A stretch of DNA of 64,000 nt, taken from contig VFJY01000046.1 in NCBI GenBank assembly GCA_009885825.1, positions 13,409-77,408 of the forward strand, in the 5' to 3' direction. The stretch is from Rhodobiaceae bacterium (GTDB taxonomy: Bacteria > Pseudomonadota > Alphaproteobacteria > Rhizobiales > Aestuariivirgaceae). This document shows positions 6,862-60,529 of the stretch, piece by piece; positions within the stretch are counted from its first letter, which is position 1; the number at the start of each line of letters is the position of its first letter. Below the pieces are notes generated by a model. That model saw nothing but the letters and a program-made list of their open reading frames with translations. It had not been told where the DNA came from and ran no database searches. Made by a program: the position numbers and the translations under genes.

Positions 6862-6950
6862 CTCAACGGGGTGCCGCATTCGCGGCTGAGAGGAACCCAA
6901 AGTTCCAACCCGCTGAACCTGATCCGGATTATGCCGGCGGAGGGATTGCG
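6862..6950 (+). promoter_or_regulatory. TPP (THI-box) riboswitch
   Basis: GGGGTGCC...GGCTGAGAG...ACCCGCTGAACCTGATCCGGATTATGCCGGCGGAGGGA matches the aptamer consensus; anti-SD CTCCTTC (6981-6987) can pair with GAAGGAG (6999-7005). Confidence 0.95.
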
Positions 6951-7010
6951 AGCGGAACTTTTTCACCCGAAGTTCCCTTCCTCCTTCTGAAATTGTTTGA
7001 AGGAGTTGTG

Positions 7011-41319: not shown

Positions 41320-41321
41320 GG

Positions 41322-44157: not shown

Positions 44158-45726
44158 TCAGAAATCCGTTGGCGCGCCGCCTTCACGTTTGCGCTTTTCC
44201 ACGAATGCATCAAGCTCTTCGCGGATTGCCGGGTCAAGGATTGGTTCAACATATTCAGCCAGGGCCTGCTTGTAGACCGCGTTTGTCCGCTGCGCCGCCT
44301 CGGGTTTTCCGGCGGCTTCCCACTGCTGGTTGTTGCGCCAGTCAGATATAATTGGCGAGTAGAACGCGGTGGAATAGCGGGCGAGCGTATGCTGAGCCCC
44401 GAAGAAATGTCCGCCGGGTCCAACTTCACGGATAGCATCAACACCCAGCGCGTCTTCGCTGGTATCAAGCGGTTGCAGAAATTCCGAAACCATCTGGATG
44501 AGATCGCAATCGAGCACGAATTTTTCGAAGCTGGCGACTAGGCCACCCTCCAGCCAGCCCGCGCCGTGCATGATAAAGTTACCCCCTCCCATGGTGAGAC
44601 CCCACATGGAGAAAACACTTTCATAGGCGGCCTGGGCATCAACGGTATTGGCAGCGCACGTGTTCGATGTGCGGTAAGGCAAATTGTAGCGCCGCGCCAT
44701 TTGCCCGCCAACGATGCAGGCCTTCATGTATTCCGGTGTGCCGAAGGCGGGGGCGCCCGACTTCATGTCGACGTTTGAAGTGAACCCGCCATAGATTACA
44801 GGCGCGCCTTTGCGGACAACTTGGGTGAATGCCAGGCCGGCGAGAGCTTCGGCGTTTTGCTCGACGATGGCTCCGGCGACAGTCACCGGCGCCATGGCGC
44901 CAGCCAGCGTGAACGGCGTGATGCAAACGATCTGGTTGCGGGACGACATTTCGATGATGCCGCGCAGCATCGGCAGATCCAGTTTCAGCGGAGAATTTGT
45001 GTTCACAATCGTGAACAGAGAAGGCTCGCGCTCCAATTGCTCCAGCGAAATGCCACGCCCAATCCTCGCGATCTCAATGCCGTCGAGAATTCTTTCGCTG
45101 CCGAGCGAGTAAGCGTGGAATGGCTTGTCTGTAAGCACGACCATATCGCGCAACGCTTCAAGATGCCGGACAGAAGCATGAATATCAACCGGCTCAACCG
45201 GATACCCGGCGATGAAGCCAATGCAATTGAAATATTGCGCGAGCTTCAGGAACTTGCGGTAATCGGCCTGGTTCCCCGTGCGGCGGCCGCCTTCGAGATC
45301 GGAACAATTGGGCGGGCTTCCAACTGTGCCAAACAGCATGTTGGGGCCGCCGATGACCGCATTGTTCTCGGCGTTGCGGGCATGGAACGTGAATTTCGGC
45401 GGAGCCGATTTCATCAGCTTCTCGATCATTGCCGGATCGAAGCGCACCCGCTCGCCGGAAATATTCGCGCCCGCCTTCCTGAGCATGTCACGGGCTTCCG
45501 GAAGCGCGAAATCCATGCCGATTTCAGAAAGCACTCTCAACGAGGCATGGTGGATGGCTTCAACCTCATCGGCGGAGATGATTTCCATTGGCGGAAAGGC
45601 GCGTGCTGTGTTGCGGCGCGGCAACTGTGGAATTGCGCCCTTGACGCCAGCGCCTGCACCCCGGCGATTTGCCGCCTCCCGCCGCCCCCGGCGGGAATTT
45701 TCCGGACTGAGAGCTTCTTCGCTCAT
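44158..45726 (-). CDS. MttB superfamily methyltransferase, non-pyrrolysine, paralog 2
   Basis: Same motifs as paralog 1 (NTNSPLKLD, HGAGWLEGGL); Arg-rich N-terminus. Confidence 0.93.
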   Translation of the reverse strand: MSEEALSPENSRRGRREAANRRGAGAGVKGAIPQLPRRNTARAFPPMEIISADEVEAIHHASLRVLSEIGMDFALPEARDMLRKAGANISGERVRFDPAMIEKLMKSAPPKFTFHARNAENNAVIGGPNMLFGTVGSPPNCSDLEGGRRTGNQADYRKFLKLAQYFNCIGFIAGYPVEPVDIHASVRHLEALRDMVVLTDKPFHAYSLGSERILDGIEIARIGRGISLEQLEREPSLFTIVNTNSPLKLDLPMLRGIIEMSSRNQIVCITPFTLAGAMAPVTVAGAIVEQNAEALAGLAFTQVVRKGAPVIYGGFTSNVDMKSGAPAFGTPEYMKACIVGGQMARRYNLPYRTSNTCAANTVDAQAAYESVFSMWGLTMGGGNFIMHGAGWLEGGLVASFEKFVLDCDLIQMVSEFLQPLDTSEDALGVDAIREVGPGGHFFGAQHTLARYSTAFYSPIISDWRNNQQWEAAGKPEAAQRTNAVYKQALAEYVEPILDPAIREELDAFVEKRKREGGAPTDF

Positions 45727-46655
45727 TTTGCTTTTCCTTTTTCACGATAGGCCTCAAGAGCAGGGTCGCTGGCCACCTGCTTCACCAGCCAATCCTCGAA
45801 GCGCTTGATTTTGGGTTTCATGCGGTCTTCGCCATTGCAGGCAAATTGCCACTGGTGGCGATGGGGCACAAAATCCGGGAATGGCTGAACCAGGCGACCC
45901 GACTTCAGCTCCTCCGTGGCAAAGGGACCAACGGTCATGGCAACCCCCCTGCCCTCAATGGCTGCTTCCTGCGCCAGAATATGACTGTCAAACGCCAGGC
46001 GATCCGAAAGCTTTACGCCCTTGACACCATGGGCCTCAAACCAGATTTGCCAGTCTTCTTCCGCCGTATAAACGTAAAGCAGCTTGTGCTTTGTCAAATC
46101 CTGAGGCGTCTTGATGGCGTTTGGGCCCCTGATCAATTCAGGTGAGCACACGGGTGCGAGAAGCGAACGAAACAAAGGGCGGTAATAGTGTTGGGGCGAC
46201 CTGTTGCGCGCAAGTATGAAGCCTGCATCCACGTTTTTCTCGTCAAAATCCCAATCGAAGTAGGACGTGGACATGCGGATTTTCATGTCGGGGTAGCGCC
46301 GCTCGAAATCATGCAATCGCGGAATAAGCCATTTCAGAGCTACGGTGACATAGACCTGAATGATGAGTTCATTGTCATTTGCCGTTGGGCGAAGGGCGCG
46401 GGTTTGTGATTCAATCTGGTCAAAGGCATCGCGAATGGCGGGGTAATAGACATGACCAATCTGGGTGAGTTCGGCGCGTCTCGCATCCCTGCGAAAAAAT
46501 TGAACACCCAGCCGCTGTTCCAATGCCTTGACCTGATGGCTTACAGCCGAGCGCGTGATTCCAAGCTCAGTTGAAGCAAGGCGGAAACTGCCAAGGCGCG
46601 CCGCGGCCTCAAAAGCCGTCAAAGCGCGGAGCGGGGGCAATTCACGTTTAGGCAA
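45723..46655 (-). CDS. LysR-family regulator, GcvA-like
   Basis: LPPLRALTAFEAAARLGSF...SAVSHQVKALE; WLIPRL; TTG start. Confidence 0.92.
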   Translation of the reverse strand: MPKRELPPLRALTAFEAAARLGSFRLASTELGITRSAVSHQVKALEQRLGVQFFRRDARRAELTQIGHVYYPAIRDAFDQIESQTRALRPTANDNELIIQVYVTVALKWLIPRLHDFERRYPDMKIRMSTSYFDWDFDEKNVDAGFILARNRSPQHYYRPLFRSLLAPVCSPELIRGPNAIKTPQDLTKHKLLYVYTAEEDWQIWFEAHGVKGVKLSDRLAFDSHILAQEAAIEGRGVAMTVGPFATEELKSGRLVQPFPDFVPHRHQWQFACNGEDRMKPKIKRFEDWLVKQVASDPALEAYREKGKAK

Positions 46656-46823: not shown

Positions 46824-48404
46824 ATGAGCGTAGTCGAAGACCTTTCCAAGCGGCGCGGCGGGCGCGACGCCAGGCGCGCTTTGCGGGCCCGCGCTATCCC
46901 CATGAGTGAGGCGGCGGTTCGCCCCGGCATGGAAGGAGGACAATACAAGCCCCTTTCCCAGCATGACTTGGAGCGCATTCACCAGGCAGCCCTGACGCTT
47001 TTAGAAACAGTCGGCTTTGCCCAGGCCATTCCAAGTTGCGTCGAAGCCATGACAGCGCGCGGCTGCACCATGACCGACAAGGGCCGCATGCTCATCCCAA
47101 GATCGCTCACCGAAGACATCCTGGCATCCTGCGCCCGAAACTTCCTGCTGCACGGGCGCGATCCGCAGCATGATATGCTGCCCAGCGGAAACAAGGTCTA
47201 TTTCGGCACGGCGGGAGCCGCCGTGCACGTGGTTGAACCTGAAACACGCACCTACCGCGAGTCGTTGCTGGTTGATCTCTATGACGCGGGCCGGATTGTT
47301 GACACGTGCGAACATATTCATTTCTTCCAGCGCTGTCTCACGGCGCGCGACATGATCACGGGCCACGATCTGGACATCAACACACTCTACGCCTGTTTGG
47401 CGTCAACCCAAAAACACGTGGGAACGTCGATGGTGGACCCGACCCATGTGGATGAATGCCTGCAGATGCTGCATTTCGTGGCAGGCAGTGAAGAGAAATG
47501 GCGCGAGCGCCCGTTTGTTTCGCAATCCAATTGCTTTGTTGTGCCACCGATGAAATTCGCCGAGGACGCCTGCCGTTGCCTGGAAGTCGCAGCGCGTGGC
47601 GGCATGCCGGTACTGTTGCTATCGGCCGCCCAGGCTGGGGCCACATCGCCCGCCGCCCTTGCCGGAACCTTGGTTCAGGCAGTCTCCGAATGCCTGTTTG
47701 GATTGGTCTACATTAATTGCATCGTGCCAGGTGCTGTTGCCATCTGGGGGCCGTGGCCGTTTGTTTCCGATCTCCGCACGGGGGCCATGTCCGGCGGTTC
47801 CGGCGAGCAGGCGCTCATCACCTCGGGCTGCGCGCAGATGGGGCATTTCTATAATCTCACGGTTGGATCAGCCGCAGGCATGTGCGATTCCAAAATGCCG
47901 GACATGCAGGCTGGGTATGAAAAAGGGGTGACAGCTGGCATCTCGGCCATGACGGGTGTCAACCTGCTCTATGAAAGCGCTGGCATGCACGCCTCGCTTC
48001 TCGGTTTCTGCCTCGAAAGCTTGCTGATCGACAACGACATGCTGGGGTCCATCAATCGCAACGTGCGCGGCATTGAAGTGAACGAGGACACTTTGTCGGT
48101 TGAGGTTATCCGCGAGGTCTGCCTCAATGGCCCTGGCCACTTCCTTGGCAGCAACCAAACGCTGAACCTGATGCAAAAGGAATATGTTTATCCGGCGATC
48201 GCCAATCGCATGAGCCCCAAGGAATGGAACGAGGCTGGCAAGCCCGATCTGGTGGAACGGGCGGCCGCTCGCAAGCATGAAATCCTGTCAACCTATTATC
48301 CGGACTATCTGCCGCGCCAAATGGATGACGTGATTCGGGCGAAGCACGACATCAAGCTGCCGCGTGAGGTTATGGAGATCGGCGACCCGCGCTGGATGAA
48401 GTAA
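46824..48404 (+). CDS. MttB superfamily methyltransferase, non-pyrrolysine, divergent paralog 3
   Basis: YFGTAG, GPWPFVSDLRTG, DSKMPDMQAGYEK, GPGHFLG. Confidence 0.93.
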   Translation: MSVVEDLSKRRGGRDARRALRARAIPMSEAAVRPGMEGGQYKPLSQHDLERIHQAALTLLETVGFAQAIPSCVEAMTARGCTMTDKGRMLIPRSLTEDILASCARNFLLHGRDPQHDMLPSGNKVYFGTAGAAVHVVEPETRTYRESLLVDLYDAGRIVDTCEHIHFFQRCLTARDMITGHDLDINTLYACLASTQKHVGTSMVDPTHVDECLQMLHFVAGSEEKWRERPFVSQSNCFVVPPMKFAEDACRCLEVAARGGMPVLLLSAAQAGATSPAALAGTLVQAVSECLFGLVYINCIVPGAVAIWGPWPFVSDLRTGAMSGGSGEQALITSGCAQMGHFYNLTVGSAAGMCDSKMPDMQAGYEKGVTAGISAMTGVNLLYESAGMHASLLGFCLESLLIDNDMLGSINRNVRGIEVNEDTLSVEVIREVCLNGPGHFLGSNQTLNLMQKEYVYPAIANRMSPKEWNEAGKPDLVERAAARKHEILSTYYPDYLPRQMDDVIRAKHDIKLPREVMEIGDPRWMK

Positions 48405-49060: not shown

Positions 49061-49964
49061 GAATGTTCAGCGCAAACTGGATGCGGGCCAGAACATTATT
49101 CTTGATGGCGGCACGGGAACAGATATCCAAAGACGCGGCGCACCGATGAGCGGCGAGACCTGGTGCGCCGATGTCAACCTGACCCATCCCGAAATCGTTC
49201 AAATGGTGCATGAAGATTATATCCGCGTGGGAGCCGATGTGATCTGCGCCAACACTTTTGCAACCAGCGCCCTCTCCTTCAATGTCTATGGTCGAGATAA
49301 AGAACTTTTGAAAATAGATGCCACGGCGGTTGCCATTGCGAAGAAGGCGGCGGCCGGGACACAGGTTGCCGTCGCGGGCTCAATCTCCACCATGCGACCC
49401 GTAGCTGCTGGCTCCGACCGCACCCTGAAAGATGTCGAATGGACAGAGCCTGAAGCGCGCGAACTGTTCCGTCGCAAGGCGGAGAATCTGGCTGTCACCG
49501 GCATTGACCTCATCATGATGGAGATGATGAGGGACGAGGACTATTCGCTGTTCGCCACCGAGACGGCAATGGCAACCGGACTTCCAGTCTGGGTGGGAAT
49601 TTCCGTAGAAAGGCGCGAAGACGGCAAGCTTTCGGGCTTTGGGCGGAATGACCAGTTGCTGGACGATATTGCGCGGGCATTGTCGGCTACGGGGCCGGCG
49701 GCCATGAGCATCATGCACACCTCTCCCAATGATACGGACGAGGCTTTGCAGATTTTGCGTAAATATTGGGATGGCCCACTGGCCGCCTATCCCGAATGCG
49801 GTTATTTCAAAAGCCCCAACTGGCAATTTGTTGATGTGATTGCGCCTGATGATCTTGTGGCCAAGGCGCAAGACTGGCAGAAACTGGGCGTTTCCATATT
49901 TGGCGGCTGCTGTGGCCTGGGACCCGGCCACATTGCGGCGCTGGCAAAGGAGTTCAAACAATGA
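49053..49964 (+). CDS. Homocysteine S-methyltransferase family protein
   Basis: LDGGTGT, GADVICANTF, C-terminal GGCCG zinc ligands; GTG start inferred. Confidence 0.9.
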   Translation: MYRNVQRKLDAGQNIILDGGTGTDIQRRGAPMSGETWCADVNLTHPEIVQMVHEDYIRVGADVICANTFATSALSFNVYGRDKELLKIDATAVAIAKKAAAGTQVAVAGSISTMRPVAAGSDRTLKDVEWTEPEARELFRRKAENLAVTGIDLIMMEMMRDEDYSLFATETAMATGLPVWVGISVERREDGKLSGFGRNDQLLDDIARALSATGPAAMSIMHTSPNDTDEALQILRKYWDGPLAAYPECGYFKSPNWQFVDVIAPDDLVAKAQDWQKLGVSIFGGCCGLGPGHIAALAKEFKQ

Positions 49965-50344
49965 AGACTGGATCATGCCTGTGTGGGGCGGTGAGGTATA
50001 AGGCACAAAACTTGCGCGATGTTGTCGCCTGCCACTGCGGGCAGTGCCGCAAGCAGACTGGCACCTATATGTCAGCCACCGGTGTCTTGGACACTGATTT
50101 GAACATTATCGAATCACGTGGGCTCAAATGGTTTCGCTCAAGCCGCACCGCCCAACGGGGATTCTGCCAGGAATGCGGCTCAGTCTTGTTCTGGAAGGGC
50201 GATGGCAAGGACTACACTGCCATTTCAGCTGGCTCGCTGGATGGCAAAACGGACCTCAAACTTGAAGGCCATATCTATTGCGATGATGCGGGCGACTATT
50301 ACGAGATTGCCGGTGGTGGGTACAAGTTGGCCCAGTGGAACTAA
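49961..50344 (+). CDS. GFA/CENP-V family zinc protein
   Basis: GSCLCG...CHCGQCRK...RGFCQECGS. Confidence 0.93.
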   Translation: MKTGSCLCGAVRYKAQNLRDVVACHCGQCRKQTGTYMSATGVLDTDLNIIESRGLKWFRSSRTAQRGFCQECGSVLFWKGDGKDYTAISAGSLDGKTDLKLEGHIYCDDAGDYYEIAGGGYKLAQWN

Positions 50345-50347
50345 GTG

Positions 50348-50490
50348 AGGAGGAGACAGTTGCAGGCAGGCAACCATCTCCTTGAAATCACTCCAAACGA
50401 ACAATACGTTTCCGGCGCTGGGCGACTAAAGCAGGAAACTCTCAGGTTTGCCGGGAAGCCAATACTTTAGCGCGCCCGAGAGTGATCCCT
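50348..50490 (-). ncRNA. Candidate structured RNA element, copy 1 (most diverged)
   Basis: Terminal hairpin 50352-50381; closing stem ATCACTC (50387-50393) / GAGTGAT (50480-50486); inner TTTCC..GGAAA stem; homologous to copies 2 and 3. Confidence 0.5.
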
Positions 50491-50499
50491 TTTCAATAG

Positions 50500-50805
50500 T
50501 TATTTAGGACAGCCTGCTTTGCCCACATCATCAGGACCGTCACAGCCGCTGTCGTCCGTTTCGCCTTCATCATTGTCGTTATCATCATCGTCGTCATCAT
50601 GGTCATCATGATCATTGTCATGGCCACCGTGACCCGAGTTATCGCTTGGACCGGAATTGTCGCTATCCGAACCGCTGCCTGAGCTATCCGATCCCTTCGC
50701 ATAGGCTTGCGATGGGCCAAATGGGTCAAAATTTGTGAAAATTGGACCTGCGGTGAGAATGCCAAGCCCGAGGAGTAAACCAAGAATTGAAGTTGAGTTG
50801 CGCAT
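50500..50805 (-). CDS. Small secreted Ser/Gly/His/Asp-rich protein
   Basis: Signal-like N-terminus ending AYA, then GHGGHDNDHDDHDDDDDD and a C-terminal Cys pair. Confidence 0.7.
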   Translation of the reverse strand: MRNSTSILGLLLGLGILTAGPIFTNFDPFGPSQAYAKGSDSSGSGSDSDNSGPSDNSGHGGHDNDHDDHDDDDDDNDNDEGETDDSGCDGPDDVGKAGCPK

Positions 50806-50939
50806 GTTTTTAGACCTCTCATTGTTTCCTTTGAAACCAGACCCCCTGGTTCATTTGCCAGAGATACCAATGTTCAGATGAGGAGGCCCTGAAACCGGTT
50901 TTCAGCGAACTGTCATCTTGAGCAGCCAACCAAATCAAA

Positions 50940-51083
50940 TAGAAAGGAGACGGTTGCGGGCAAGCAACCATCTCCATGAAATCACTCAGTTTACCAAGAT
51001 TTCCCCGCGCTGGGCAGCGTTATTGGAAACTTTTTAAGCTTGGCAGACAGGTCAAGGGCAATCGACCTGACATGGAGTGACTG
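50940..51083 (-). ncRNA. Candidate structured RNA element, copy 2
   Basis: Hairpins at 50946-50975 and 51048-51069 both carry a UUGCCC loop on the minus strand; closing stem ATCACTC/GAGTGA. Confidence 0.55.
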
Positions 51084-51210
51084 GTTCTGAACCGGCAGCA
51101 GGCCAGATGTCCGAATCTGAATACAGGAACTTATCGTCCCCACGAGCCTCTAAAATGGGGACGAATTGTTGTTTCAAAACCACATTGAAGTGACCGAATT
51201 TCAGGTCCGC

Positions 51211-51489
51211 TTACTGAACCTCAGTGACAGTTAACTTTCCATTTACGCGTTCAGCGGTGAACTTGATTTTTGTGCCCGGCTTGAACTTGGGCAGCATGGT
51301 CGCATCCTTGACTGCAAACACCATGGTCATGGCGCCCATGTCGAGATTCTTGAGCGGTTCATGCTTTATGGTGACCTTCAGCTGTTTTTCGTCAACTTTC
51401 TTGACAAGACCGCTCGTCATCTCAGTGCCACTAGCCGATGTCGAAAGCATTGCAGCAAGCAGGGCTGATACAGTGAGTAGCTTCTTCAT
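51211..51489 (-). CDS. CusF-like periplasmic copper-binding protein
   Basis: Signal peptide; KVTIKHEPLKNLDMGAMTMVF (H/M/M site). Confidence 0.92.
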   Translation of the reverse strand: MKKLLTVSALLAAMLSTSASGTEMTSGLVKKVDEKQLKVTIKHEPLKNLDMGAMTMVFAVKDATMLPKFKPGTKIKFTAERVNGKLTVTEVQ

Positions 51490-51544
51490 GATTGTATCCT
51501 TCACAATAGACAGTTGTTGATGGTTGTTGCTTTGAATCTGATTA

Positions 51545-52039
51545 TCAATTCTTGGTGACTTTCAGCGGCCCGTGCATTCCGGATTCGTAGTGGCCGGGAA
51601 TGAGGCACGCGAAGGTGTAATCTCCAGACTTCGAGAAGGTCCAGATGATCTGGCCCGTTTCACCAGGAGCAAGCCGCAATGAGTTGTCATCTGCATGTTC
51701 CATGTCGGGGTTCTTTTCCATCTCGACCTTGTGAGCTAGAACATTGGCTTCGGTGTCCATGACAAACTCGTGATCCGCCTCTCCTTTGTTAGTGAAGTTC
51801 AGGACCACAGTTTCACCTTCCCGGAATTGCAGTTTCTTGGGCTCAAAAATCATCTTTCCGTCATTGGTTTCGCGCATTGTGATGTTAATGGTGCGCTTGG
51901 CCTTAGCCTTTGCGCCCGCCATGCCCAGGGAATACTCATCATGATCCTCCTCATGAGTGCCGGTGGCAAACGCGCCATTTCCCAGTGCCAAAGCTGCAGT
52001 CATGGACGCAATAATCAGTAACCTCATAGTTTTCCTCAT
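51545..52039 (-). CDS. Cupredoxin (plastocyanin/azurin-like) periplasmic protein
   Basis: HEF...FACLIPGHYESGM type-1 copper ligands; signal peptide. Confidence 0.92.
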   Translation of the reverse strand: MRKTMRLLIIASMTAALALGNGAFATGTHEEDHDEYSLGMAGAKAKAKRTINITMRETNDGKMIFEPKKLQFREGETVVLNFTNKGEADHEFVMDTEANVLAHKVEMEKNPDMEHADDNSLRLAPGETGQIIWTFSKSGDYTFACLIPGHYESGMHGPLKVTKN

Positions 52040-52082
52040 TGGTTGATGAATAATTCAAAGTGTCTTGAGATGGGTTTCAGTT

Positions 52083-53426
52083 CTATCCGACAGTTTTCCT
52101 TGGCGGCGCGGTTTTGGCATCGCCAGACTTGACCGGCTCTGGCAGATCGCCTGTCCACTCGTATGCGACCGTACCTTCGGGATGCTTGTACCAACCCGGA
52201 TCGGCGTAGTCGCCGGCTGACAAGCCCTCACGGACTTTGACAACTGAGAACATGCCACCCATTTCAATGGCGCCGAACTGACCAAAGCCAGTCATCATCG
52301 GCAGAGTGTTGTCTGGAAGCGGCATTTCCATCTCGGCCATGTCAGCCATGCCATTCTCACCCATTGGCATGTACTCCTCTTGCACCTTTTGGATTTTTTC
52401 TGCGATTTTGGACTTGTCCGTGCCGATAAAAGTGGGAATGTCATGCCCCATGGCGTTCATGGTGTGATGCGACTTGTGGCAATGGATGGCCCAGTCGCCT
52501 TCGTATTTTGCGTCGAATTCGTAGGCCCGCATACCGCCGACTGGAATGTCAATCGTTACCTCCGGCCATCTTGCTTCAGGCCGCACCCAACCACCGTCAG
52601 TGCAGGTTACTTCAAAATCATAGCCATGCATGTGGATGGGATGGTTTGTCATAGTCAGATTGCCAACGCGCACACGCACCTTGTCATTCTTGCCAACAAC
52701 TAAATGACTGATGCCGGGAAACACACGGCTATTCCAAGACCATATATTAAAGTCGACCATGGTCATGATCTTGGGCATGTAAGAACCAGGATCAATGTCA
52801 TAAGCATTCAGCAGAAACACGAAGTCCCGGTCCACGCGCATGAACTTCGGGTCTTTGGGATGAATGACAAAGAATCCCATCATACCCATGGCCATCTGAG
52901 TCATCTCGTCAGCATGAGGGTGGTACATAAATGTACCGCTCTTTACGAGATCGAACTCGTACACGAAGGTCTTTCCAGCGGGAATACCGGGCTGGGTTAA
53001 CCCAGTCACACCATCCATTCCTGACGGCAAAATCATGCCGTGCCAGTGGACTGATGTATGTTCCTTGAGTTTGTTCGTGACGAAAATGCGCACACGGTCA
53101 CCTTCGACGGCTTCAATCGTCGGTCCAGGCGACTGTCCGTTATAGCCCCAGAGATGCGCCACCATGCCCGGTGCGAACTCTCTATTTACTGGCTCCGCCA
53201 CAAGGTGGAACTCCTTCACTCCGTTGTTCATGCGGTGTGGAAGTGTCCACCCATTCAGTGTCACAACGGGTTGATAGTCAGGCCCGCTGATAGGAAAAAT
53301 CGGCGGCTGCATGTCGGGGGATTTCATGATGGCTGCCTCAGGCAGGGACATTGCCATGGTTTTTGTCCATGCGGCCGCACTGGCTAGAACCGCCCCTGCG
53401 CCGATGATGCTACGACGATTGATCAT
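52083..53426 (-). CDS. Tat-exported multicopper oxidase
   Basis: NRRSII Tat motif; HWHG, MYHPH, HPIHMHG, HCHKSHH..M; ATG 53426. Confidence 0.95.
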   Translation of the reverse strand: MINRRSIIGAGAVLASAAAWTKTMAMSLPEAAIMKSPDMQPPIFPISGPDYQPVVTLNGWTLPHRMNNGVKEFHLVAEPVNREFAPGMVAHLWGYNGQSPGPTIEAVEGDRVRIFVTNKLKEHTSVHWHGMILPSGMDGVTGLTQPGIPAGKTFVYEFDLVKSGTFMYHPHADEMTQMAMGMMGFFVIHPKDPKFMRVDRDFVFLLNAYDIDPGSYMPKIMTMVDFNIWSWNSRVFPGISHLVVGKNDKVRVRVGNLTMTNHPIHMHGYDFEVTCTDGGWVRPEARWPEVTIDIPVGGMRAYEFDAKYEGDWAIHCHKSHHTMNAMGHDIPTFIGTDKSKIAEKIQKVQEEYMPMGENGMADMAEMEMPLPDNTLPMMTGFGQFGAIEMGGMFSVVKVREGLSAGDYADPGWYKHPEGTVAYEWTGDLPEPVKSGDAKTAPPRKTVG

Positions 53427-53454
53427 GTTTGTTTCTCCAAAAATATCATGTGCT

Positions 53455-54903
53455 TCAATGGCCAGCGCTCCCACCTTCGGCGAGTGACACGCCGCCACCG
53501 CCACTGCTGCCGCCGTATCCGCCATGAATGGCAGAGCGCAGATCAACTTCAGCCAACCAAAAATTCTGTTTGGCATTGACGGACATGAGCCTGGCATTGG
53601 TAGAGGCCCGCGTGTCGTTAAGCATCTCAAATGTGCTGGAAATCATGCCGTTGTACTCGAGCAGGACCTCCTGCTTGATGACGTCACGCAATGGCACAAT
53701 CTTGTCCCGGTAATGCAGCGCAATCTCATGGCTTGACTTGTATTTGTCGTAGGCGCCACGGGCTTCAGAACGAATGTTCACTGCTTTCTCGGCAAGACGG
53801 TTGGCCGCGCGCATGTACATGAACTCGGCTTTGCGCATCCGCGCTTTACCAGAGTCAAATATTGGAATCGCAAACTCAAGCTCAATCCGCTTCTTGGTCA
53901 GTTCGGTCGGCCCGCCAGCTTTCGGCTTTTCAAGCTCAACGGCAGCAACAAGTTCCAGGTCGGTGAGATAGCGCGTGGCATTTTCAAGTTTGTGTTCGCG
54001 TGCAACAGCTTCCAGTTCATACTTGGCGATTTGGAGATCAACGCGCGTCCGCAATGCTTCCGTTTCAATGCCGGTTTTCACAATTGTCCGAGCGGGCAGT
54101 TTTGGCAAGGATGATGACAACAAGTAATTTAAGTCGTCGCCCCAAACACCCATAAGCCTGTTCAGTGCTTCCCGCGCCTCACGTTCACTGATGCGAGATT
54201 CGGAAAGTTGCCCAGAGATCTCGGCAAATACGACGTGTTCACGTGCTTGCGCGGCCTTATTGAACGCGCCTGTGCGGCCCAGTTCCTTTGCGAGTTCAGA
54301 GCTTGCATCTGAGGCCGTCTGGGCTTGAAGCAAATAGGAAACGGTCTCCTTCGCTGCCACCGCCTTGATCCAAGCCCGCTGCGTATCAAAAGCGAGCTTC
54401 AATGCGGAGTACGCGGCCTGATGTTGCGCCTCCCTGAATTTCGCTTCGGCAATATCGACGCGTTTCTCCCGAGTGATCAGCGCGAGAAGATTGCCGACAA
54501 TCGCAGACTCAAAAATCCGGACTGTGGCCTTTTCGGCGGTGCCGATGGAAACGACTGGATTCATTAGCATCGTTTCCTGCCACATTTCGGCAGACGAAAT
54601 GCCAATCTCCGCGAGGTCTGCTTGCAAGCCCTTGTTGTTGAGAATGGCAACACGCATAGCCATGTCCCGCGTCAAGGTTTTGTTTTTCAAAATAGCGCGT
54701 GTTTGGGACGCCGCTCTCTGCGCTTCCTCCTGAGACTGCACCCAGACAGGTCGCTTGCCCGTTGCCGCGACAATGTGGGCCGAAGCGCCCTGAAGCCCAT
54801 ACTTCGAGTCTTCAAGCCGTTTCCAGTCAGAATTCGAAGCACAACCAGCCAATAGGCCAGATGTGAGAATCGCAAAGACGGCCTTATTGAGGGCTACATT
54901 CAT
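53455..54903 (-). CDS. TolC-like outer-membrane lipoprotein of the copper cluster
   Basis: LLAGC lipobox, AILNNKGLQA, IPIFDSG, YNGM..S.FEML; ATG 54903. Confidence 0.9.
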   Translation of the reverse strand: MNVALNKAVFAILTSGLLAGCASNSDWKRLEDSKYGLQGASAHIVAATGKRPVWVQSQEEAQRAASQTRAILKNKTLTRDMAMRVAILNNKGLQADLAEIGISSAEMWQETMLMNPVVSIGTAEKATVRIFESAIVGNLLALITREKRVDIAEAKFREAQHQAAYSALKLAFDTQRAWIKAVAAKETVSYLLQAQTASDASSELAKELGRTGAFNKAAQAREHVVFAEISGQLSESRISEREAREALNRLMGVWGDDLNYLLSSSLPKLPARTIVKTGIETEALRTRVDLQIAKYELEAVAREHKLENATRYLTDLELVAAVELEKPKAGGPTELTKKRIELEFAIPIFDSGKARMRKAEFMYMRAANRLAEKAVNIRSEARGAYDKYKSSHEIALHYRDKIVPLRDVIKQEVLLEYNGMISSTFEMLNDTRASTNARLMSVNAKQNFWLAEVDLRSAIHGGYGGSSGGGGVSLAEGGSAGH

Positions 54904-55144
54904 TTTTCTCTCCCTCTGGCTTTTCGCACTTCTCCTTTTCCGCACCGTCTTCCGGGACCCATGCTTCCGGTACAACAGGCTCGCGATGGGTGTAGCCTGT
55001 TAACGTCGCGTGATGGTGTGTCCTCGGCACTTTTGCGCCCGCTTTGACAGGTGATTTGTGTGGCAAGACCTCGGGGAGAGGGCTTGGCGATGCGCACCCA
55101 GCAAGCAGCAAAGGCACAACGACGACAAACAGCGTTGCTTTCAT
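54884..55144 (-). CDS. Small lipoprotein
   Basis: LLLAGC lipobox, HHH, two C-terminal Cys. Confidence 0.7.
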   Translation of the reverse strand: MKATLFVVVVPLLLAGCASPSPLPEVLPHKSPVKAGAKVPRTHHHATLTGYTHREPVVPEAWVPEDGAEKEKCEKPEGEKNECSPQ

Positions 55145-55221
55145 GATAGTTCCGACAATGAAAAAAATGACGATGGGTGAGCTAGGGCGAGCCTAACTCA
55201 AGGCGGATTCCGAGTATGGAA

Positions 55222-55587
55222 TCACGCGCGAGGGGGCCGCTTCAGGCCAAAGTTGATGCGCGAAGTCAGCTGATCGGCTTCAAGCATACTATGAACTACA
55301 AAGTTAGAGGCGAATGCAATAGCAGAACCAGATTCAATCATGTCAACCGTCGAGCAAACCATGTCGCAACAGTCCGTGTTCGTCTTGCTCGACTGGCCAC
55401 CCGATTTCTCTTCGCAAGGCGCACTTACCGCAGCAGCGTGACCATGCCCGGTTGCAGGAGTTATCTTGGCATCCATGGTATGATGAAACGCCATAGCCTG
55501 CTGCGACAACGAAGAAGAGAACGCAAACGAAAACATGACACAGAGTGCCACGATCAATCTTACATATCGCGCCAAGTCGAATCTCAT
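55222..55587 (-). CDS. Small putative metal-binding protein (CopL/DUF2946-like)
   Basis: Hydrophobic N-terminus, HHTM/HGH, DCCDMVC, RPPR end. Confidence 0.65.
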   Translation of the reverse strand: MRFDLARYVRLIVALCVMFSFAFSSSLSQQAMAFHHTMDAKITPATGHGHAAAVSAPCEEKSGGQSSKTNTDCCDMVCSTVDMIESGSAIAFASNFVVHSMLEADQLTSRINFGLKRPPRA

Positions 55588-55649
55588 GGGAGTTGCATAT
55601 AGAAAAATCCTGTGGGGTCAAGTTACACTTTGGTCACGACCACGTTACC

Positions 55650-55880
55650 CTCGCCGCATGCCCTGTTGCATCACTCTGATCAGAACAGCCAATATGCCAG
55701 TAAGCAGTTCCGCAGACTGATGGAAGACAATGATGTCACCTGTTCGATGAGCAGGTCAAGGAACGTGCGGGACAATGCCGCGATGGAGAGCTTTTTCTCT
55801 TGCTCAAGACGGAACGAACAGCGCGTAAAGTCTATCGATCACGTGACCAGGCCAAAGCCCATGTGTTCAGCAGCCCATAT
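55650..55880 (+). mobile_element. IS3-family transposase (integrase core) remnant, frameshifted
   Basis: LLHHSDQNSQYAS...TCSMSRSRNVRDNAAMESFFS, then a frame change to LKTERTARKVYRSRDQAKAHVF; truncated on both sides. Confidence 0.9.
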
Positions 55881-55944
55881 AGCTATGATGCGGCCAATGA
55901 TGGGCACCTGAAACGCATTGTCAGCACGCCGTCATCGAAGCCTG

Positions 55945-56095
55945 AAATAAAAAGGAGATGGTTGCGGGCAAGCAACCATCTCCACTAAATCACTCTCTTC
56001 TGCAAACTTTTTTCCCTCGCTGGACGGCGAAACTGGGAAATTTACTAAGCTCGCTAAGGAAGGTCGAGGGCAATCAACCTGCCGTAGAGTGATTA
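55945..56095 (-). ncRNA. Candidate structured RNA element, copy 3
   Basis: Perfect 12-bp hairpin 55954-55983 with UUGCCC loop plus U-run on the minus strand; closing stem AATCACTCT (55988-55996) / AGAGTGATT (56086-56094); hairpin 56061-56080. Confidence 0.6.
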
Positions 56096-56167
56096 TTTCT
56101 CAAAACTTTTATTTACTAAACTTACTACACATACCAACTCACGATTTCCGTCCGGTATGATTAATAA

Positions 56168-56857
56168 CTACAATACATTGCCTGACGAAACCGTGAGCGG
56201 CGCTGTCAGCATTTTGTCAGTTTGCGAGAGGGCCTCCAAATCCGTCTCCAGTTCGCCATAGCCGGTAAAACGGTATTCAAAGGCCAAGCCCAGTTTTTCA
56301 GCTGATTTTCTAGCGTTTTCAATTATTTGCTCATCATGAACCTGGGCAAGATAGACAATTTTTGTATAGTTCCCGAAGTAGGAGGACAGCAATTCCGGGT
56401 GCCGATCCAGCCCCAGGCCAGCCCAAATTAGCCTGTCAAAATGTCGCGCCAGATAGTCCGTCAGGTAAAAGGCTGTGAATTCATCCTCTGATTTTGCAGC
56501 AAATTCGGGGTTTCCGGAGAAAAACGCATAGCAATGGGGCCCGTCGATTCGCTCGACGCCCTCTTCGTCCAGCATTTTGTCGAGCAAGCCGCCGGTGCCG
56601 CAATCGCCATAAAGCACAAAAATGGACTTGTATTTGTCCCGATTGGCCCGGATTTTCTCACGCACTGCGGGAACGATGAAGTGTGGCGTATTGTGCCATT
56701 TGGCGGGCAGGCACTGTACATCAAAGGCCGTCCAGCGGTTGCGCTCAATGAGGTCAACAATCTCACGGGCCAGGGCCCCGCAGGCGATCAGCAGCACATC
56801 ACCGTTGCCCGTGGCAAACTGGAACTCTTCCGATGGCTTGAGGTCTACGGTCGTCAA
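56168..56857 (-). CDS. DUF1638 family protein
   Basis: LIACGALAREI, CLPAKWHN, YGDCGTGG, GPHCYAFF, FYLTDYL, YFGNY. Confidence 0.9.
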   Translation of the reverse strand: MTTVDLKPSEEFQFATGNGDVLLIACGALAREIVDLIERNRWTAFDVQCLPAKWHNTPHFIVPAVREKIRANRDKYKSIFVLYGDCGTGGLLDKMLDEEGVERIDGPHCYAFFSGNPEFAAKSEDEFTAFYLTDYLARHFDRLIWAGLGLDRHPELLSSYFGNYTKIVYLAQVHDEQIIENARKSAEKLGLAFEYRFTGYGELETDLEALSQTDKMLTAPLTVSSGNVL

Positions 56858-56862
56858 GGGAT

Positions 56863-57564
56863 TTAGCCCTTGGCCAATTGATTGTGCTTGCGCGCCATAA
56901 AGGCCTTGGCGGTTTCAACGGCCACGGCCGCGTCACGGCAATATGCATCTGCGCCAATGGCCTTGGCGAATTCTTCGTTGAGGGGAGCGCCGCCCACCAT
57001 CACCACGTAGTCATCGCGCATGCCTTTTTCCTTCAAGGTATCAATGACGACTTTCATATAGGGCATTGTGGTGGTGAGAAGCGCCGACATGCCGAGAATA
57101 TCGGGCTGATGCTCTTCAATAGCGGCCAGATATTTTTCAACAGAATTGTTAATGCCCAAATCGATGACTTCGAAGCCCGCGCCTTCCATCATCATGCCAA
57201 CGAGGTTTTTGCCGATGTCATGAATGTCGCCCTTGACGGTGCCTATCACCATTTTGCCCAGGCGCGGCGCGCCTGTCGCTATCAGAAGCGGCCGCAAAAT
57301 GAACATGCCAGCTTTCATGGAATTGGCGGCCAGCAAGACTTCCGGCACAAACAGAATGCCATCGCGGAAATCAATGCCGACGATGCGCATGCCTTCAACC
57401 AGCGCTTCCGTCAAAACCCTATAGGGAGCCCAGCCGCGGCCCAGCAGAATGTTAACGGCGGTTTCAACCTCTTCCTTCAAACCGTCATAGAGATCGTCAT
57501 GGACCTGCAGCACCAGATCTTCATCATTAAGGGAGTTCAGATCAAGTTCGCCGTCATCGCTCAT
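56863..57564 (-). CDS. Cobalamin-binding corrinoid protein (cap + B12-binding domains)
   Basis: GTVKGDIHDIGKNLV (DxHxxG), SALLTTT, VGGAP. Confidence 0.96.
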   Translation of the reverse strand: MSDDGELDLNSLNDEDLVLQVHDDLYDGLKEEVETAVNILLGRGWAPYRVLTEALVEGMRIVGIDFRDGILFVPEVLLAANSMKAGMFILRPLLIATGAPRLGKMVIGTVKGDIHDIGKNLVGMMMEGAGFEVIDLGINNSVEKYLAAIEEHQPDILGMSALLTTTMPYMKVVIDTLKEKGMRDDYVVMVGGAPLNEEFAKAIGADAYCRDAAVAVETAKAFMARKHNQLAKG

Positions 57565-59901: not shown

Positions 59902-60529
59902 AGGCCCGGCTCCAACAACATTTCAAGCATTCGCTCAGGGCGGTTCAAAAAATCGCGCGTGATCTGATAATGTTCAGTGTCTTTGTATTCCACCCGCTCC
60001 AACCCTCTGGAGCTGATCTGATAAATCCAGGCATCGGGATATGCCATCAATATCGGCGAGTGCGTAGCAATGACGAAAAAGACTCTCCATGCGATTGCTT
60101 GTGGAGGGAGACCCCGCCAAACGAGTCAATTATTGGCGGTGAGTTCGCGGGTTCGCTATCCAATCTTTCTATTTCAGTTGCGACATTGAAATAGCTTTCT
60201 GCGCGCAGAAAAAAACCGTCGCGCGCGCGCTTTACGGATTTCACCAATCTCAGGACTTTATGCAAATCCGAATGTGCCTTATGTGTATTGAAATTGAAGT
60301 TCTTTGAGCCCCCCTCGGCGTTAAATCCCCATGCCATTGCAATTGCTTCTATAACGGTTGATTTTCCAGAACCATTTTCGCCAATCAGGAAAGTCACGTT
60401 TGGATGGAATTCAACTTCGTGAAATTTGGATATGGCCGGCAAGGAAAACGGGAATTCAGTCCGGTTATCGACACCATCCCATAACAGCCTTGCTTTCAAG
60501 AGGTAGTGCTCTGCCTCATAAGATTTCAT
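59898..60529 (-). pseudogene. Predicted AAA/ABC-type ATPase disrupted by an internal deletion and frameshift
   Basis: GENGSGKST...SHGESF jumps into a different frame reading FVIATHSPILMAYPDA...EPGL*; the Walker B (DEPE) segment is absent. Confidence 0.85.

What the first reader, a model, noticed from the sequence alone, without database searches (positions are those of the whole stretch)
50348..56095. Three diverged copies of a ~140-nt structured RNA-like element with repeated UGCCC loops: candidate new multicopy sRNA family
Seen: copies at about 50348-50490, 50940-51083 and 55945-56095 share one architecture on the minus strand. A closing stem (AUCACUC...GAGUGAU) encloses (i) a hairpin with loop UUGCCC (UUCCC in copy 1) and (ii) a UUUCC..GGAAA stem topped by a CGC/GCG hairpin with a GCCC or GUCC loop. 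It is followed by a 12-bp GGAGAUGGUUGC/GCAACCAUCUCC hairpin, again with a UUGCCC-type loop, and a U-rich tail. Copies 2 and 3 match at 42/45 nt over the 3' part but diverge between stems. Stem substitutions give G-U wobbles on the minus strand (they would be A-C mismatches on plus), including a C-G,G-U to U-G,G-C swap between copies 2 and 3, which suggests selection on RNA structure and fixes the strand. Known: alphaproteobacteria have sibling sRNAs with repeated C-rich loops (cuckoo CCUCCUCCC, AbcR), but this loop motif matches none I recognise. Inference: a sibling sRNA or protein sponge, or a cis attenuator, tied to metal-resistance cargo.
Basis: partly seen in the sequence, partly recalled or inferred. 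Interest (0 to 1): 0.85.

Follow-up and report, generated by a model that had tools for sequence, protein, structure and literature searches.

The report
New sibling small-RNA family beside secreted-protein gene
The three repeats are real copies of a previously uncatalogued, transcribed and structured small RNA. It grew out of the tail of a small secreted-protein gene in uncultured freshwater alphaproteobacteria, and its position next to copper-resistance genes here is an accident of a later insertion.

Summary

- **Copies.** Three minus-strand copies (50343-50490, 50937-51085, 55945-56097) share a closing stem, two internal hairpins and a 12-bp terminator.
- **Not catalogued.** No Rfam family matches.
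- **Structure and strand.** Across 16 distinct copies from related metagenome and MAG loci, 94% of pair cells are paired, against 43-49% in slid controls. 17 of 39 pairs change on both sides. G-U cells outnumber A-C cells 60 to 4, which fixes the strand.
- **Conserved loops.** The conserved single-stranded features are a YGCCC loop in hairpin 1 and a G(U/C)CC loop in hairpin 2. The terminator loop is not conserved.
- **Transcription.** Contigs from five independent RNA libraries cover copy 3 plus a roughly 52-nt leader but not the flanking genes. Their ends cluster at window 56144-56148, which predicts an RNA of about 200 nt.
- **Low copy number.** Only these copies exist in 64 kb. DNA read depth gives no sign of further copies.
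- **Locus.** All copies lie between a DUF1638 gene and a GFA gene, around a small secreted Asp/His-rich ORF. Copy 1 is that ORF's 3'UTR. Copies 2 and 3 are tandem duplicates that carry a copy of the ORF's upstream TGACA-repeat region.
- **Copper link.** The copper cluster was inserted between copies 3 and 2, so the metal link is secondary.
- **Function.** Untested. Most likely these are co-regulated sibling sRNAs that act through their C-rich loops.

The parts
55945..56148 (-). Copy 3 as a transcript. The predicted RNA is about 200 nt: a C-poor, mostly unpaired leader of about 52 nt (56095-56148), the structured core, and the terminator with its U-run.
   Evidence: RNA-library contigs cover 55990-56144 (X22) and 55995 to about 56144 (X23), but not the flanking genes. 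On homologous loci the contigs end at L001 3920 (X25, X27, X28) and at L002 653 (X25, X27), the same residue, which corresponds to window 56148. The fold is and the CM hit of 178.8 bits.
56086..56094 (-). Copy 3, P1 5' strand (AAUCACUCU). It pairs with 55988-55996 (AGAGUGAUU).
   Evidence: In the short 3'UTR forms of L001 and L036 the helix is CCACUGU/ACAGUGG, so pairing is kept with a different sequence.
55988..55996 (-). Copy 3, P1 3' strand.
56058..56083 (-). Copy 3, hairpin 1. Its loop UUGCCC lies at 56068-56073. The loop and closing pairs GA-UYGCCC-UC are kept in all but two of the 17 copies (window copy 1, and L058, which keeps only GCCCU).
   Evidence: The stem covaries, for example column pair 24/38 is CG in 8 copies and UA in 8.
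56002..56054 (-). Copy 3, branch 2. A basal helix and the UUUCCC/GGGAAA helix are topped by a CGCC/GCG hairpin. The apical loop contains GUCC (56021-56026).
   Evidence: The basal helix shows compensatory changes among copy-3 orthologues (CGAACUU/AAGUUCG versus CGAACC/GGUUCG).
55954..55983 (-). Copy 3, intrinsic terminator. It has a 12-bp stem and loop UUGCCC, followed by UUUUUAUUU (55945-55953).
   Evidence: The terminator scan is. All cells in this helix are paired, with 3 pairs changed on both sides.
50937..51085 (-). Copy 2. It is a full structured core with terminator (50946-50975) and loops UUGCCC at 51056-51061 and 50958-50963. In this genome the copper-island insertion cut it off from its upstream region.
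   Evidence: CM hit of 147.8 bits, terminator scan, comparison with L002. No RNA contig was seen for it.
50343..50490 (-). Copy 1. It is the 3'UTR of the small ORF. P1, branch 2 (loop GCCC) and the terminator stem are kept. Hairpin 1 has diverged and there is no U-run.
   Evidence: CM hit of 117.7 bits and fold. A contig from an RNA-type library spans 50432-50595, from the ORF 3' end into copy 1. On L001, contigs span the ORF 3' end plus copy 1.
50500..50805 (-). Small ORF of 101 aa. It has a signal peptide, an Asp/His/Gly/Ser-rich region and a C-terminal C-x(n)-C. This is the gene around which the RNA copies are organised.
   Evidence: Alignment of 10 orthologues. No Pfam or NCBIfam family matches. 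It sits in the same position in most related loci.
56179..56222 (-). Upstream motif 'M' of copy 3: AACTGACAaaatGCTGACA-N16-CGTCAGGCA. The TGACA-like repeats are spaced about 11 bp apart, and the first overlaps the usual DUF1638 stop codon. It is a putative promoter/operator.
   Evidence: The motif is kept upstream of the small ORF in loci that lack the RNA (L047, L051 and, more weakly, L054).
55897..55937 (-). Second copy of motif M, downstream of the copy-3 terminator. In L002 this copy is the upstream region of copy 2.
   Evidence: CTGACA-N16-CATCAT was flagged as promoter-like.
50868..50918 (-). Third, degenerate copy of motif M, upstream of the small ORF.
51105..55890 (.). Context only; the boundaries are approximate. 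An inserted block splits the copy 3 / copy 2 pair. It holds an outer-membrane efflux protein, a multicopper oxidase, a cupredoxin, CusF and an integrase-core fragment.
   Evidence: Pfam hits. Homology to L002 is lost after M and regained about 20 nt before the copy-2 P1.

Best explanation
**What is shown.** These are sibling small RNAs of a new, lineage-restricted family.
- The structured core has P1, two hairpins with YGCCC and G(U/C)CC loops, and an intrinsic terminator.
- It first appears as the 3'UTR of a small gene for a secreted Asp/His-rich protein. That is the position of copy 1.
- Copy 3 accumulates as a discrete RNA whose 5' end is at about 56148, so its predicted length is about 200 nt.

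**What is inferred.**
- Tandem duplication of the unit [upstream TGACA-repeat region, 5'UTR, ORF, 3'UTR], followed by loss of the ORF, produced the stand-alone genes (copies 3 and 2). Each has its own copy of the upstream region and its own terminator.
- The RNAs are therefore co-regulated with the secreted protein.
- They act in trans. The exposed C-rich loops (GA-UYGCCC-UC, complementary to GAGGGCRA) would pair with G-rich, Shine-Dalgarno-like sites of target mRNAs.
- The C-poor leader rich in A, G and U, together with the U-tail, would serve as chaperone (Hfq-type) binding sites.
- This is how CcsR/cuckoo, AbcR and CpxQ-type sRNAs work.
For: **Structure and strand**
- On the model-fitted alignment, 94.2% of cells are paired against 43-49% in slid controls. 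17 of 39 pairs change on both sides. No shuffle out of 500 reaches these values.
- An independent MAFFT/RNAalifold alignment gives the same helices: 97.6% paired, 8 of 33 pairs changed on both sides.
- G-U cells outnumber A-C cells 60 to 4.
- Loops are conserved while stems vary.

**Transcription**
- Five RNA libraries hold contigs of copy 3 plus its leader only. Flanking genes are absent from them, whereas DNA runs cover the region evenly.
- Contig ends coincide at L001 3920 (X25, X27, X28) and L002 653 (X25, X27), the same residue as window 56148. X22 and X23 end about 4 nt inside.
- One fragment carries both adapter tails. Read 1 lies on the strand opposite the element, which is the orientation expected in most stranded libraries for an RNA on the element's strand.
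- Intrinsic terminators are predicted for copies 2 and 3.

**3'UTR origin and duplication**
- Loci form a series: an empty site (L044); M plus ORF plus terminator (L051, L054, L062); ORF plus a rudimentary or full 3'UTR copy (L047 at 28 bits, L058); and added stand-alone copies (L001, L036, L049, L059, L002, window).
- On L001, contigs span the ORF 3' end into copy 1.
- In L049 the region upstream of copy 3 aligns with the region upstream of the ORF, through M to GGAACUUUU (0 of 300 shuffles reach the score).
- L063 carries a duplicated DUF1638 3' end and two ORF copies.

**Analogy**
- CcsR1-4 are tandem homologous sRNAs from the 3'UTR of a small-protein gene, with C-rich anti-Shine-Dalgarno loops (PMC8034643).
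Against: - No target is known. A duplex scan of the window's 5' regions found nothing above background. There is no GGGCRA site in the module itself.
- The covariation rests on few independent lineages, about 4 clades.
- RNA evidence comes from assembled contigs. These carry no direction of their own, have low depth (2-18x) and could include PCR duplicates.
- The strand call from the adapters assumes a dUTP-type library.
- Whether the 5' end is a transcription start or a processing site is unresolved. Two promoter readings of M are possible.
- Copy 2 has lost its upstream region here and no RNA contig was seen for it. Copy 1 has a diverged hairpin 1.
- A 4-6 nt conserved loop core is short for a seed.
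Confidence: 0.5

Rival explanations
1. The element is a cis-acting 3'UTR module. Its job is to terminate and stabilise the small ORF's mRNA, or to insulate it from the convergent GFA gene. The stand-alone copies would then be by-products of tandem duplication that are transcribed but have no trans function.
For: - The oldest and most widespread position is the ORF's 3'UTR.
- The terminator stem base GGAGAUGG/CCAUCUCC is the most conserved part.
- The locus is clearly prone to duplication.
- No targets were found.
Against: - Stand-alone copy 3 keeps its full structure through compensatory changes across several lineages.
- It is the most readily detected RNA of the locus in several libraries. 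In X27 its depth is 18.5, while the 5' part of the ORF has none.
- The loop sequences are conserved independently of the stems. A pure stabiliser does not need that.
Confidence: 0.2
2. The RNA binds, sponges or scaffolds a protein. The repeated YGCCC hairpin loops would be binding sites for an RNA-binding protein, as the GGA loops of CsrB/RsmZ are for CsrA.
For: - There are two to three similar hairpins per RNA with the same loop motif. Hairpin 1 (GGUUGA-UUGCCC-UCGACC) and the terminator (GGUUGC-UUGCCC-GCAACC) resemble each other in the window clade.
- The conserved core GCCC is short.
- There are multiple copies per locus.
Against: - The terminator loop motif is lost in the distant clade.
- No candidate binding protein is encoded in the module.
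- The only linked protein is secreted.
- No known protein recognises this motif, as far as I am aware.
Confidence: 0.15
3. The element is a riboswitch or attenuator. The three-way junction senses a ligand or a metal and controls read-through of its terminator into the small ORF.
For: - P1 encloses a junction and is followed 4 nt later by a terminator. Copies 3 and 2 lie upstream of the ORF.
- On L001 one RNA contig reaches upstream of the ORF's predicted start. This suggests some read-through.
Against: - Copy 1, and the ancestral form, lie downstream of the ORF.
- Junction nucleotides are variable in sequence and length, whereas loops and stems are conserved.
- I found no alternative antiterminator pairing on reading the sequences.
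- The ORF has its own copy of motif M between the terminator and its start codon.
Confidence: 0.07
4. The element is a mobile or repetitive DNA element (MITE, REP or IS200/IS605-type palindromic element) rather than an RNA gene.
For: - Similar hairpins lie near both ends of the unit.
- Direct repeats of motif M flank the units.
- An integrase fragment lies nearby.
Against: - There are only three copies in 64 kb, all in one locus.
- Depth at the terminator is 18 against 8.4 in the flanks, which copies 2 and 3 alone explain.
- Orthologous copies sit at the same syntenic site in different lineages.
- There is no match in plasmid or phage collections.
- A pattern scan of one genome for each of 185,579 species found only three related MAGs. 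All 30 metagenome pattern hits were chance.
- The strong G-U over A-C asymmetry indicates selection at the RNA level.
Confidence: 0.03

Closest known systems
CcsR1-4 / 'cuckoo' RNAs of Rhodobacter sphaeroides and other alphaproteobacteria (PMC8034643)
   Same: - Both are tandem homologous sRNAs linked to a small-protein gene and derived from its 3'UTR.
- Both have C-rich hairpin loops.
- In both, the locus is prone to duplication and reorganisation.
- CcsR RNAs modulate C1 metabolism. The present locus is a methyl-transfer/C1 gene cluster (MttB-family, corrinoid protein, homocysteine S-methyltransferase, GFA).
   Different: - The loop motif is YGCCC or G(U/C)CC, not CCUCCUCCC.
- Each unit is a three-way junction with its own terminator and, for copies 3 and 2, its own upstream region. 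It is not two simple hairpins cut out of one precursor.
- The linked protein is a secreted acidic protein, not a DUF1127 RNA-binding protein.
- No Rfam model hits the region.
CpxQ-type 3'UTR-derived sRNAs (enterobacterial cpxP 3'UTR; from my own knowledge)
   Same: An sRNA is embedded in the 3'UTR of an mRNA for a small periplasmic protein and shares its terminator and regulation (copy 1).
   Different: - There is no sequence or structure similarity.
- Here, extra stand-alone gene copies exist.
- Processing by RNase E is not shown.
AbcR1/2 and NfeR1 (alpha-r15, alpha-r14) sibling sRNAs of Rhizobiales (from my own knowledge; the families are in Rfam)
   Same: Both are alphaproteobacterial sibling sRNAs in tandem, with C-rich single-stranded motifs that pair with ribosome-binding sites.
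   Different: - There is no Rfam hit even at E<=10.
- The motifs, architecture and genomic context all differ.

Membership tests
Any Rfam 15 family (including cuckoo, AbcR/alpha-r15, alpha-r14 and other alphaproteobacterial sRNAs, and riboswitches) | A covariance-model match at or near the family's gathering score. | tested here: not met
   At gathering threshold the window gives only TPP and PYLIS_3, both elsewhere. At E<=10 over 49500-57000 nothing overlaps any of the three copies.
CcsR / cuckoo RNAs | CCUCCUCCC motif in each hairpin loop. | tested here: not met
   The loops are UUGCCC or UCGCCC, and GUCC or GCCC.
CcsR / cuckoo RNAs | Linked to, and co-transcribed with, a DUF1127 small-protein gene. 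| tested here: not met
   The linked ORF has a signal peptide and an acidic low-complexity region, and has no Pfam hit.
3'UTR-derived sRNA (as a kind) | The RNA lies between the stop codon and the terminator of an mRNA, and is co-transcribed with it. | tested here: met
   Copy 1 starts 10 nt after the ORF stop codon. RNA contigs span the ORF 3' end into copy 1: X26 and X27 on L001 and X18 on the window.
3'UTR-derived sRNA (as a kind) | A processed, stable 3' fragment accumulates and acts in trans. | not testable with these tools
   Contigs break at the shared terminator k-mers. No 5'-end-resolved data exist for copy 1.
Independently transcribed trans-acting sRNA | A discrete transcript with defined ends, distinct from neighbouring mRNAs. 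| tested here: met
   Contigs containing only copy 3 occur in five RNA libraries. Their ends cluster at window 56144-56148. A terminator is predicted at 55954-55983.
Independently transcribed trans-acting sRNA | Base-pairing targets, with or without chaperone dependence. | tested here: inconclusive
   The in-window duplex scan was no better than background. No complete genome or interaction data are available.
MITE / REP / palindromic repeat element | Many dispersed copies per genome, with terminal repeats and target-site duplications. | tested here: not met
   There are three copies at one locus. Read depth fits two terminator copies. Orthologues are syntenic.
Riboswitch with terminator expression platform | A 5'UTR location, conserved junction or ligand-pocket nucleotides, and an alternative antiterminator. 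| tested here: not met
   The ancestral position is a 3'UTR. The junctions are variable. I found no competing helix on reading the sequences.
Intrinsic (Rho-independent) terminator | A GC-rich stem-loop followed by a U-run. | tested here: met
   Copies 2 and 3 are flagged by the scan. Copy 1 has the stem but no U-run.

The most novel reading that the evidence does not exclude
The conserved YGCCC and G(U/C)CC hairpin loops may not be base-pairing seeds. They could be recognition sites for a protein or a small ligand. The family would then be a new RNA-protein (or RNA-ligand) regulatory device coupled to a secreted Asp/His-rich protein. The locus series would also document step by step how a 3'UTR becomes a set of autonomous sRNA genes, by duplication of promoter plus UTR with loss of the ORF.
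Probability: 0.15. Interest if true: 0.65.

Novelty: new member of a known kind. Interest (0 to 1): 0.45.

Why it matters
- It adds an uncatalogued, expressed structured sRNA family from uncultured freshwater and sediment Hyphomicrobiales-type bacteria. It was detected purely from sequence and confirmed in public metatranscriptomes.
- The related loci form a graded series: an empty site; the ORF with a plain terminator; the ORF with a structured 3'UTR; then added stand-alone copies. The series illustrates how sRNA genes can arise from a 3'UTR by tandem duplication.
- It corrects a tempting but wrong functional link to copper resistance.
- It points to an uncharacterised secreted acidic protein and a phased TGACA-repeat control region as the things to study with the RNA.

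Tried and rejected
1. **Rfam** at gathering threshold and at E<=10: no family.
2. **Exact-pattern scan of JGI metagenome contigs:** 30 hits, about the number expected by chance. Both covariance models rejected all of them.
3. **blastn of copy 3 against the plasmid and phage collections:** no match.
4. **Target search.** RNAduplex of the loop regions against -60..+30 of 66 crude ORFs in the window gave a best energy of -20.3 kcal/mol, no better than the 1% tail of random windows (-22.7). A search for GGGCRA sites within the module across loci found none that is conserved.
5. **Internal strand control.** I tried to use the ORF/copy-1 fragment of run X27. Its adapter tails were too short (10-11 nt, within the part both adapters share) to orient it.
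6. **Small peptide in the copy-3 leader.** An AUG followed by 6-7 codons is present in the window and in L001 but absent in L004, so I rejected it.
7. **Pho-box or ECF-promoter readings of motif M.** The reverse complement resembles CTGTCA-N5-CTGTCA. CTGACA-N16-CGTCA resembles ECF or sigma-70 geometry. Neither could be tested, so both stay as leads.
8. **Literature search for UUGCCC with sRNA:** only irrelevant miRNA papers.

Full report

Yes. On the minus strand the three stretches align over about 150 nt. RNAalifold gives one common fold: a closing stem P1, hairpin 1, a second branch, and a 12-bp terminator hairpin.

- The terminator pattern gives 5 matches at up to 3 mismatches: the three copies on the minus strand plus plus-strand readings of two near-palindromic terminators. 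The closing-stem pattern occurs 3 times. About 0.01 matches are expected by chance for each.
- The minus strand folds better than shuffles (z = -4.3, -5.7, -6.7). The plus strand folds less well.
- A covariance model (R1) scores the copies at 178.8, 147.8 and 117.7 bits and finds no other copy in the window.
- Copy 1 is the most diverged. Its hairpin 1 is replaced, its terminator loop is CUGCCU, and it has no U-run.

**2. Is it known?**

No.
- Rfam 15 gives only a TPP riboswitch and a PYLIS_3 hit, both elsewhere in the window.
- A permissive scan (E<=10) of 49500-57000 gives nothing that overlaps any of the three copies.
- blastn against the plasmid and phage collections finds nothing.

**3. 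Relatives and distribution**

- An exact-pattern scan of one genome per GTDB species found true copies in only three MAGs: two labelled Rhodobiaceae and one labelled uncultured alphaproteobacterium. Two further hits were chance.
- The metagenome pattern scan returned 30 hits, about the chance expectation. None is a real copy.
- I then followed synteny. Homologues of the adjacent DUF1638 protein were looked up on their contigs, as was one homologue of the small ORF.
- The conserved gene order is: corrinoid B12-binding protein, DUF1638, [module], then on the opposite strand GFA, homocysteine S-methyltransferase, a ferredoxin-like gene and an MttB-family methyltransferase.

The module between DUF1638 and GFA varies from locus to locus:

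| Loci | Content of the module |
|---|---|
| L044-46 | Empty; DUF1638 overlaps GFA |
| L056 | No small ORF |
| L051/52, L054/55, L062 | Upstream motif plus small secreted acidic ORF plus plain terminator; no RNA element |
| L047 | ORF with a rudimentary 3'UTR element (28 bits) |
| L058 | ORF with a full 3'UTR element only |
| L001, L036-38, L049/50, L059/60, L063 | A stand-alone copy upstream of the ORF plus a 3'UTR copy (L061 shows the upstream copy only; its contig ends within the ORF) |
| L002, window | Two stand-alone copies upstream of the ORF |

The family is therefore tied to this one locus and to a narrow clade. It is not dispersed.
- In a DNA run whose contigs match the window almost exactly (X1), only the contigs of copy 3 and copy 2 map to the element.
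- Depth at the terminator is 18, against 8.4 in the flanks. Two copies account for that.

**4. Structure and strand**

*Model-fitted alignment (17 hits, 16 distinct).*
- 94.2% of pair cells form standard pairs, against 43-49% when the partners are slid.
- 17 of 39 pairs change on both sides.
- None of 500 shuffles reaches the observed values.

*Independent MAFFT/RNAalifold alignment of 14 full-length copies.*
- It predicts the same four helices.
- 97.6% of cells are paired, and 8 of 33 pairs change on both sides (1 of 500 shuffles reaches this).

*Other points.*
- The short 3'UTR forms in L001 and L036 replace the P1 helix AUCACUC/GAGUGAU with CCACUGU/ACAGUGG.
- In paired columns there are 60 G-U cells and 4 A-C cells. 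Selection therefore acts on the strand that also carries the ORF and the U-runs.
- Caveat: the variation comes from about four clades, so the number of independent events is small.

*What stays constant while the stems vary*:
- the loop and closing pairs of hairpin 1 (GA-UUGCCC-UC or GA-UCGCCC-UC; L058 keeps only GCCCU);
- a GUCC or GCCC loop on branch 2;
- most of P1;
- the base of the terminator (GGAGAUGG/CCAUCUCC).

The UUGCCC loop of the terminator is confined to the window clade. The junctions vary in sequence and length.

**5. Transcription**

The word index found RNA-type runs that hold the sequence.

*On the window.*
- X22 (155 nt, 100% identical, 55990-56144) and X23 (153 nt) cover only copy 3 and about 50 nt upstream of P1.
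- Nothing covers DUF1638, copy 2, CusF or the other neighbours. The only matches within the small ORF are to its Asp-codon repeat and are spurious.
- DNA run X1 covers everything at about 9x.

*On L001 and L002.*
- X25, X27 and X28 give the same picture.
- Contig ends coincide at L001 3920 (X25, X27, X28) and L002 653 (X25, X27). These are the same residue and correspond to window 56148, the G of ACG|GAAAUCG.
- X22 and X23 end about 4 nt inside.
- Contigs break near the terminator. Its 31-mers are shared between copies, so assembly cannot cross it.

*Strand from adapters.*
- The X27 contig still carries adapter tails. ACGACGCTCTTCCGATCT is on the 522 side and AGATCGGAAGAGCACACG on the 653 side of L002.
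- Read 1 therefore reads the strand opposite the element. In most stranded libraries this is the orientation expected for an RNA on the element's strand with its 5' end at 653.
- This assumes the library type. An internal control using the ORF fragment failed because its adapter tails were too short.

*The other copies.*
- The ORF 3' end and copy 1 lie on the same contigs (X26 and X27 on L001; X18 on the window). Copy 1 is therefore co-transcribed as a 3'UTR.
- On L001 one contig (X25, 3388-3685) reaches upstream of the ORF's likely start, which suggests some read-through from copy 3.

*The predicted copy-3 RNA.* It runs from 56148 to about 55950, roughly 200 nt. Its C-poor leader is rich in A, G and U, contains GUAAGU/UAGUUAGU-type repeats, and stays mostly unpaired in the fold.

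**6. Upstream motif and origin by duplication**

A motif that I call M precedes every unit. Its form is AACTGACA-N4-GCTGACA-N16-CGTCAGGC, with TGACA-like elements about 11 bp apart.
- It overlaps the normal DUF1638 stop codon.
- It recurs after the terminators of copy 3 and copy 2, that is, in front of the next unit.
- It is also upstream of the ORF in loci that lack the RNA (L047, L051 and, more weakly, L054). It therefore belongs to the ORF's control region.

Evidence for duplication:
- In L049 the region upstream of copy 3 aligns with the region upstream of the ORF, from M to GGAACUUUU (0 of 300 shuffles reach the score).
- L063 holds a duplicated, decayed DUF1638 3' end, two ORF copies and the RNAs. 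This shows segmental tandem duplication at work.

Two promoter readings fit the data, and I could not decide between them:
- (a) CTGACA-N16-nnTCAn acts as the -35 and -10 elements (one copy was flagged), and the transcript is then processed to 56148.
- (b) The TGACA repeats are activator sites upstream of TCAGGC / TCATAC, and 56148 is the transcription start. The block ATCATACCGGACGG is invariant among copy-3 orthologues.

**7. The copper link**

- In L002 the homologues of copies 3 and 2 are about 100 nt apart.
- In the window, homology to L002 stops shortly after the M that follows copy 3 and resumes about 20 nt before the copy-2 P1.
- The roughly 4.8 kb in between holds an outer-membrane efflux protein, a multicopper oxidase, a cupredoxin, CusF and an integrase-core fragment.
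- The copper genes are therefore a later insertion. It also separated copy 2 from its upstream region.
- The native neighbourhood is methyl-group/C1 metabolism: three MttB-family paralogues, a corrinoid protein, homocysteine S-methyltransferases and GFA.

**8. Mechanism**

*Shown:* a conserved fold on a fixed strand; conserved loops; a discrete abundant copy-3 RNA; copy 1 as a 3'UTR; shared upstream motifs; origin by duplication.

*Inferred:* co-regulation with the secreted acidic protein, and trans action through the C-rich loops. GA-UYGCCC-UC is complementary to GAGGGCRA, which resembles a Shine-Dalgarno site. The leader and U-tail may bind a chaperone.

- No target could be found with the sequence at hand.
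- The rivals are a cis-only 3'UTR module with inert duplicates, a protein-binding RNA, a riboswitch, and a mobile repeat. They are weighed in their own sections.

**9. Comparison with known systems**

- The closest analogue is the CcsR1-4/cuckoo system. These are tandem homologous sRNAs from the 3'UTR of a small-protein gene, with C-rich loops and a role in C1 metabolism (PMC8034643).
- CpxQ-type 3'UTR sRNAs are also similar in kind.
- Membership in those families fails on every defining feature tested: loop motif, linked protein and Rfam model.
- I therefore rate it a new family of a known kind.

**10. Verdict**

The finding is real and new as a family, but of a familiar type. The proposed metal connection is not supported. 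Interest is moderate. Its main value is the clear evolutionary series and the environmental expression evidence. Function is still open.

Noticed in passing
window 51105-55890 (approximate boundaries): A copper-resistance block has been inserted into the sRNA locus. It holds an OEP-family outer-membrane protein (53455-54975), a multicopper oxidase (52083-53630), a cupredoxin (51545-52039) and CusF (51211-51504), all on the minus strand. On the plus strand it holds an integrase-core fragment (55612-55911) and an unassigned 128-aa ORF (55216-55602). The multicopper oxidase is 72-77% identical in DNA to plasmid-borne copper oxidases of Rhizobium, Sinorhizobium and Agrobacterium.
   Followed up: partly
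window 50500-50805 (-); orthologues in L001, L036, L047, L049, L051, L054, L058, L059, L062, L063: This is an uncharacterised family of small secreted proteins. Each has a signal peptide ending near ALA-D, an Asp/His/Gly/Ser/Asn-rich region of variable length, and a C-terminal C-x(5-10)-C. There is no Pfam or NCBIfam hit. It is conserved between DUF1638 and GFA in many Hyphomicrobiales-type metagenome contigs.
   Followed up: partly
window 56168-56222 (-): The DUF1638 ORF in the window is 229 aa, against 211-218 aa in its homologues. A 2-nt difference just before the usual TGA stop, which lies inside the first TGACA of motif M, lets the frame run on for 17 more codons across the motif.
   Followed up: partly
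window 56179-56222, 55897-55937, 50868-50918 (-); also L047, L049, L051, L054: TGACA-like repeats are spaced about 11 bp apart: AACTGACA-N4-GCTGACA-N16-CGTCAGGC. The last element is inverted relative to GCTGAC. The reverse complement resembles a Pho-box-type direct repeat, and the geometry also fits an ECF or sigma-70 promoter. The regulator is unknown.
   Followed up: partly
L063 9190-9560: A decayed duplicate of the DUF1638 3' end, together with a second copy of the small ORF (8731-9106), lies between DUF1638 and the sRNA units. This is direct evidence of segmental tandem duplication at this locus.
   Followed up: partly
window 6857-6962 (+): A TPP riboswitch: 75.2 bits against a gathering score of 54.3.
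   Followed up: no
window 47880-47979 (+): There is an Rfam PYLIS_3 hit (48.1 bits) inside an uninterrupted 526-aa MttB-family ORF (46824-48404). It probably reflects similarity of the coding sequence in a non-pyrrolysine MttB homologue rather than a working pyrrolysine insertion element.
   Followed up: no
window 39796-41367 (-), 44158-45726 (-), 46824-48404 (+): There are three MttB-family methyltransferase paralogues in 9 kb. The first two share a 300-nt stretch at 75% identity (repeat D1). A LysR regulator lies at 45723-46655 and two homocysteine S-methyltransferase genes lie nearby. This looks like a quaternary-amine demethylation island.
   Followed up: no
window 51133-51161 (-): Downstream of cusF and just upstream of copy 2 there is a GC-rich hairpin, CGUCCCCAUUUUAGAGGCUCGUGGGGACG, with no U-run. 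It may mark the end of the inserted operon.
   Followed up: no
window 60047-60529 (-): A 160-aa ORF matches only the N-terminal P-loop part of AAA_23 / SMC_N-type ATPases. It may be a truncated gene.
   Followed up: no
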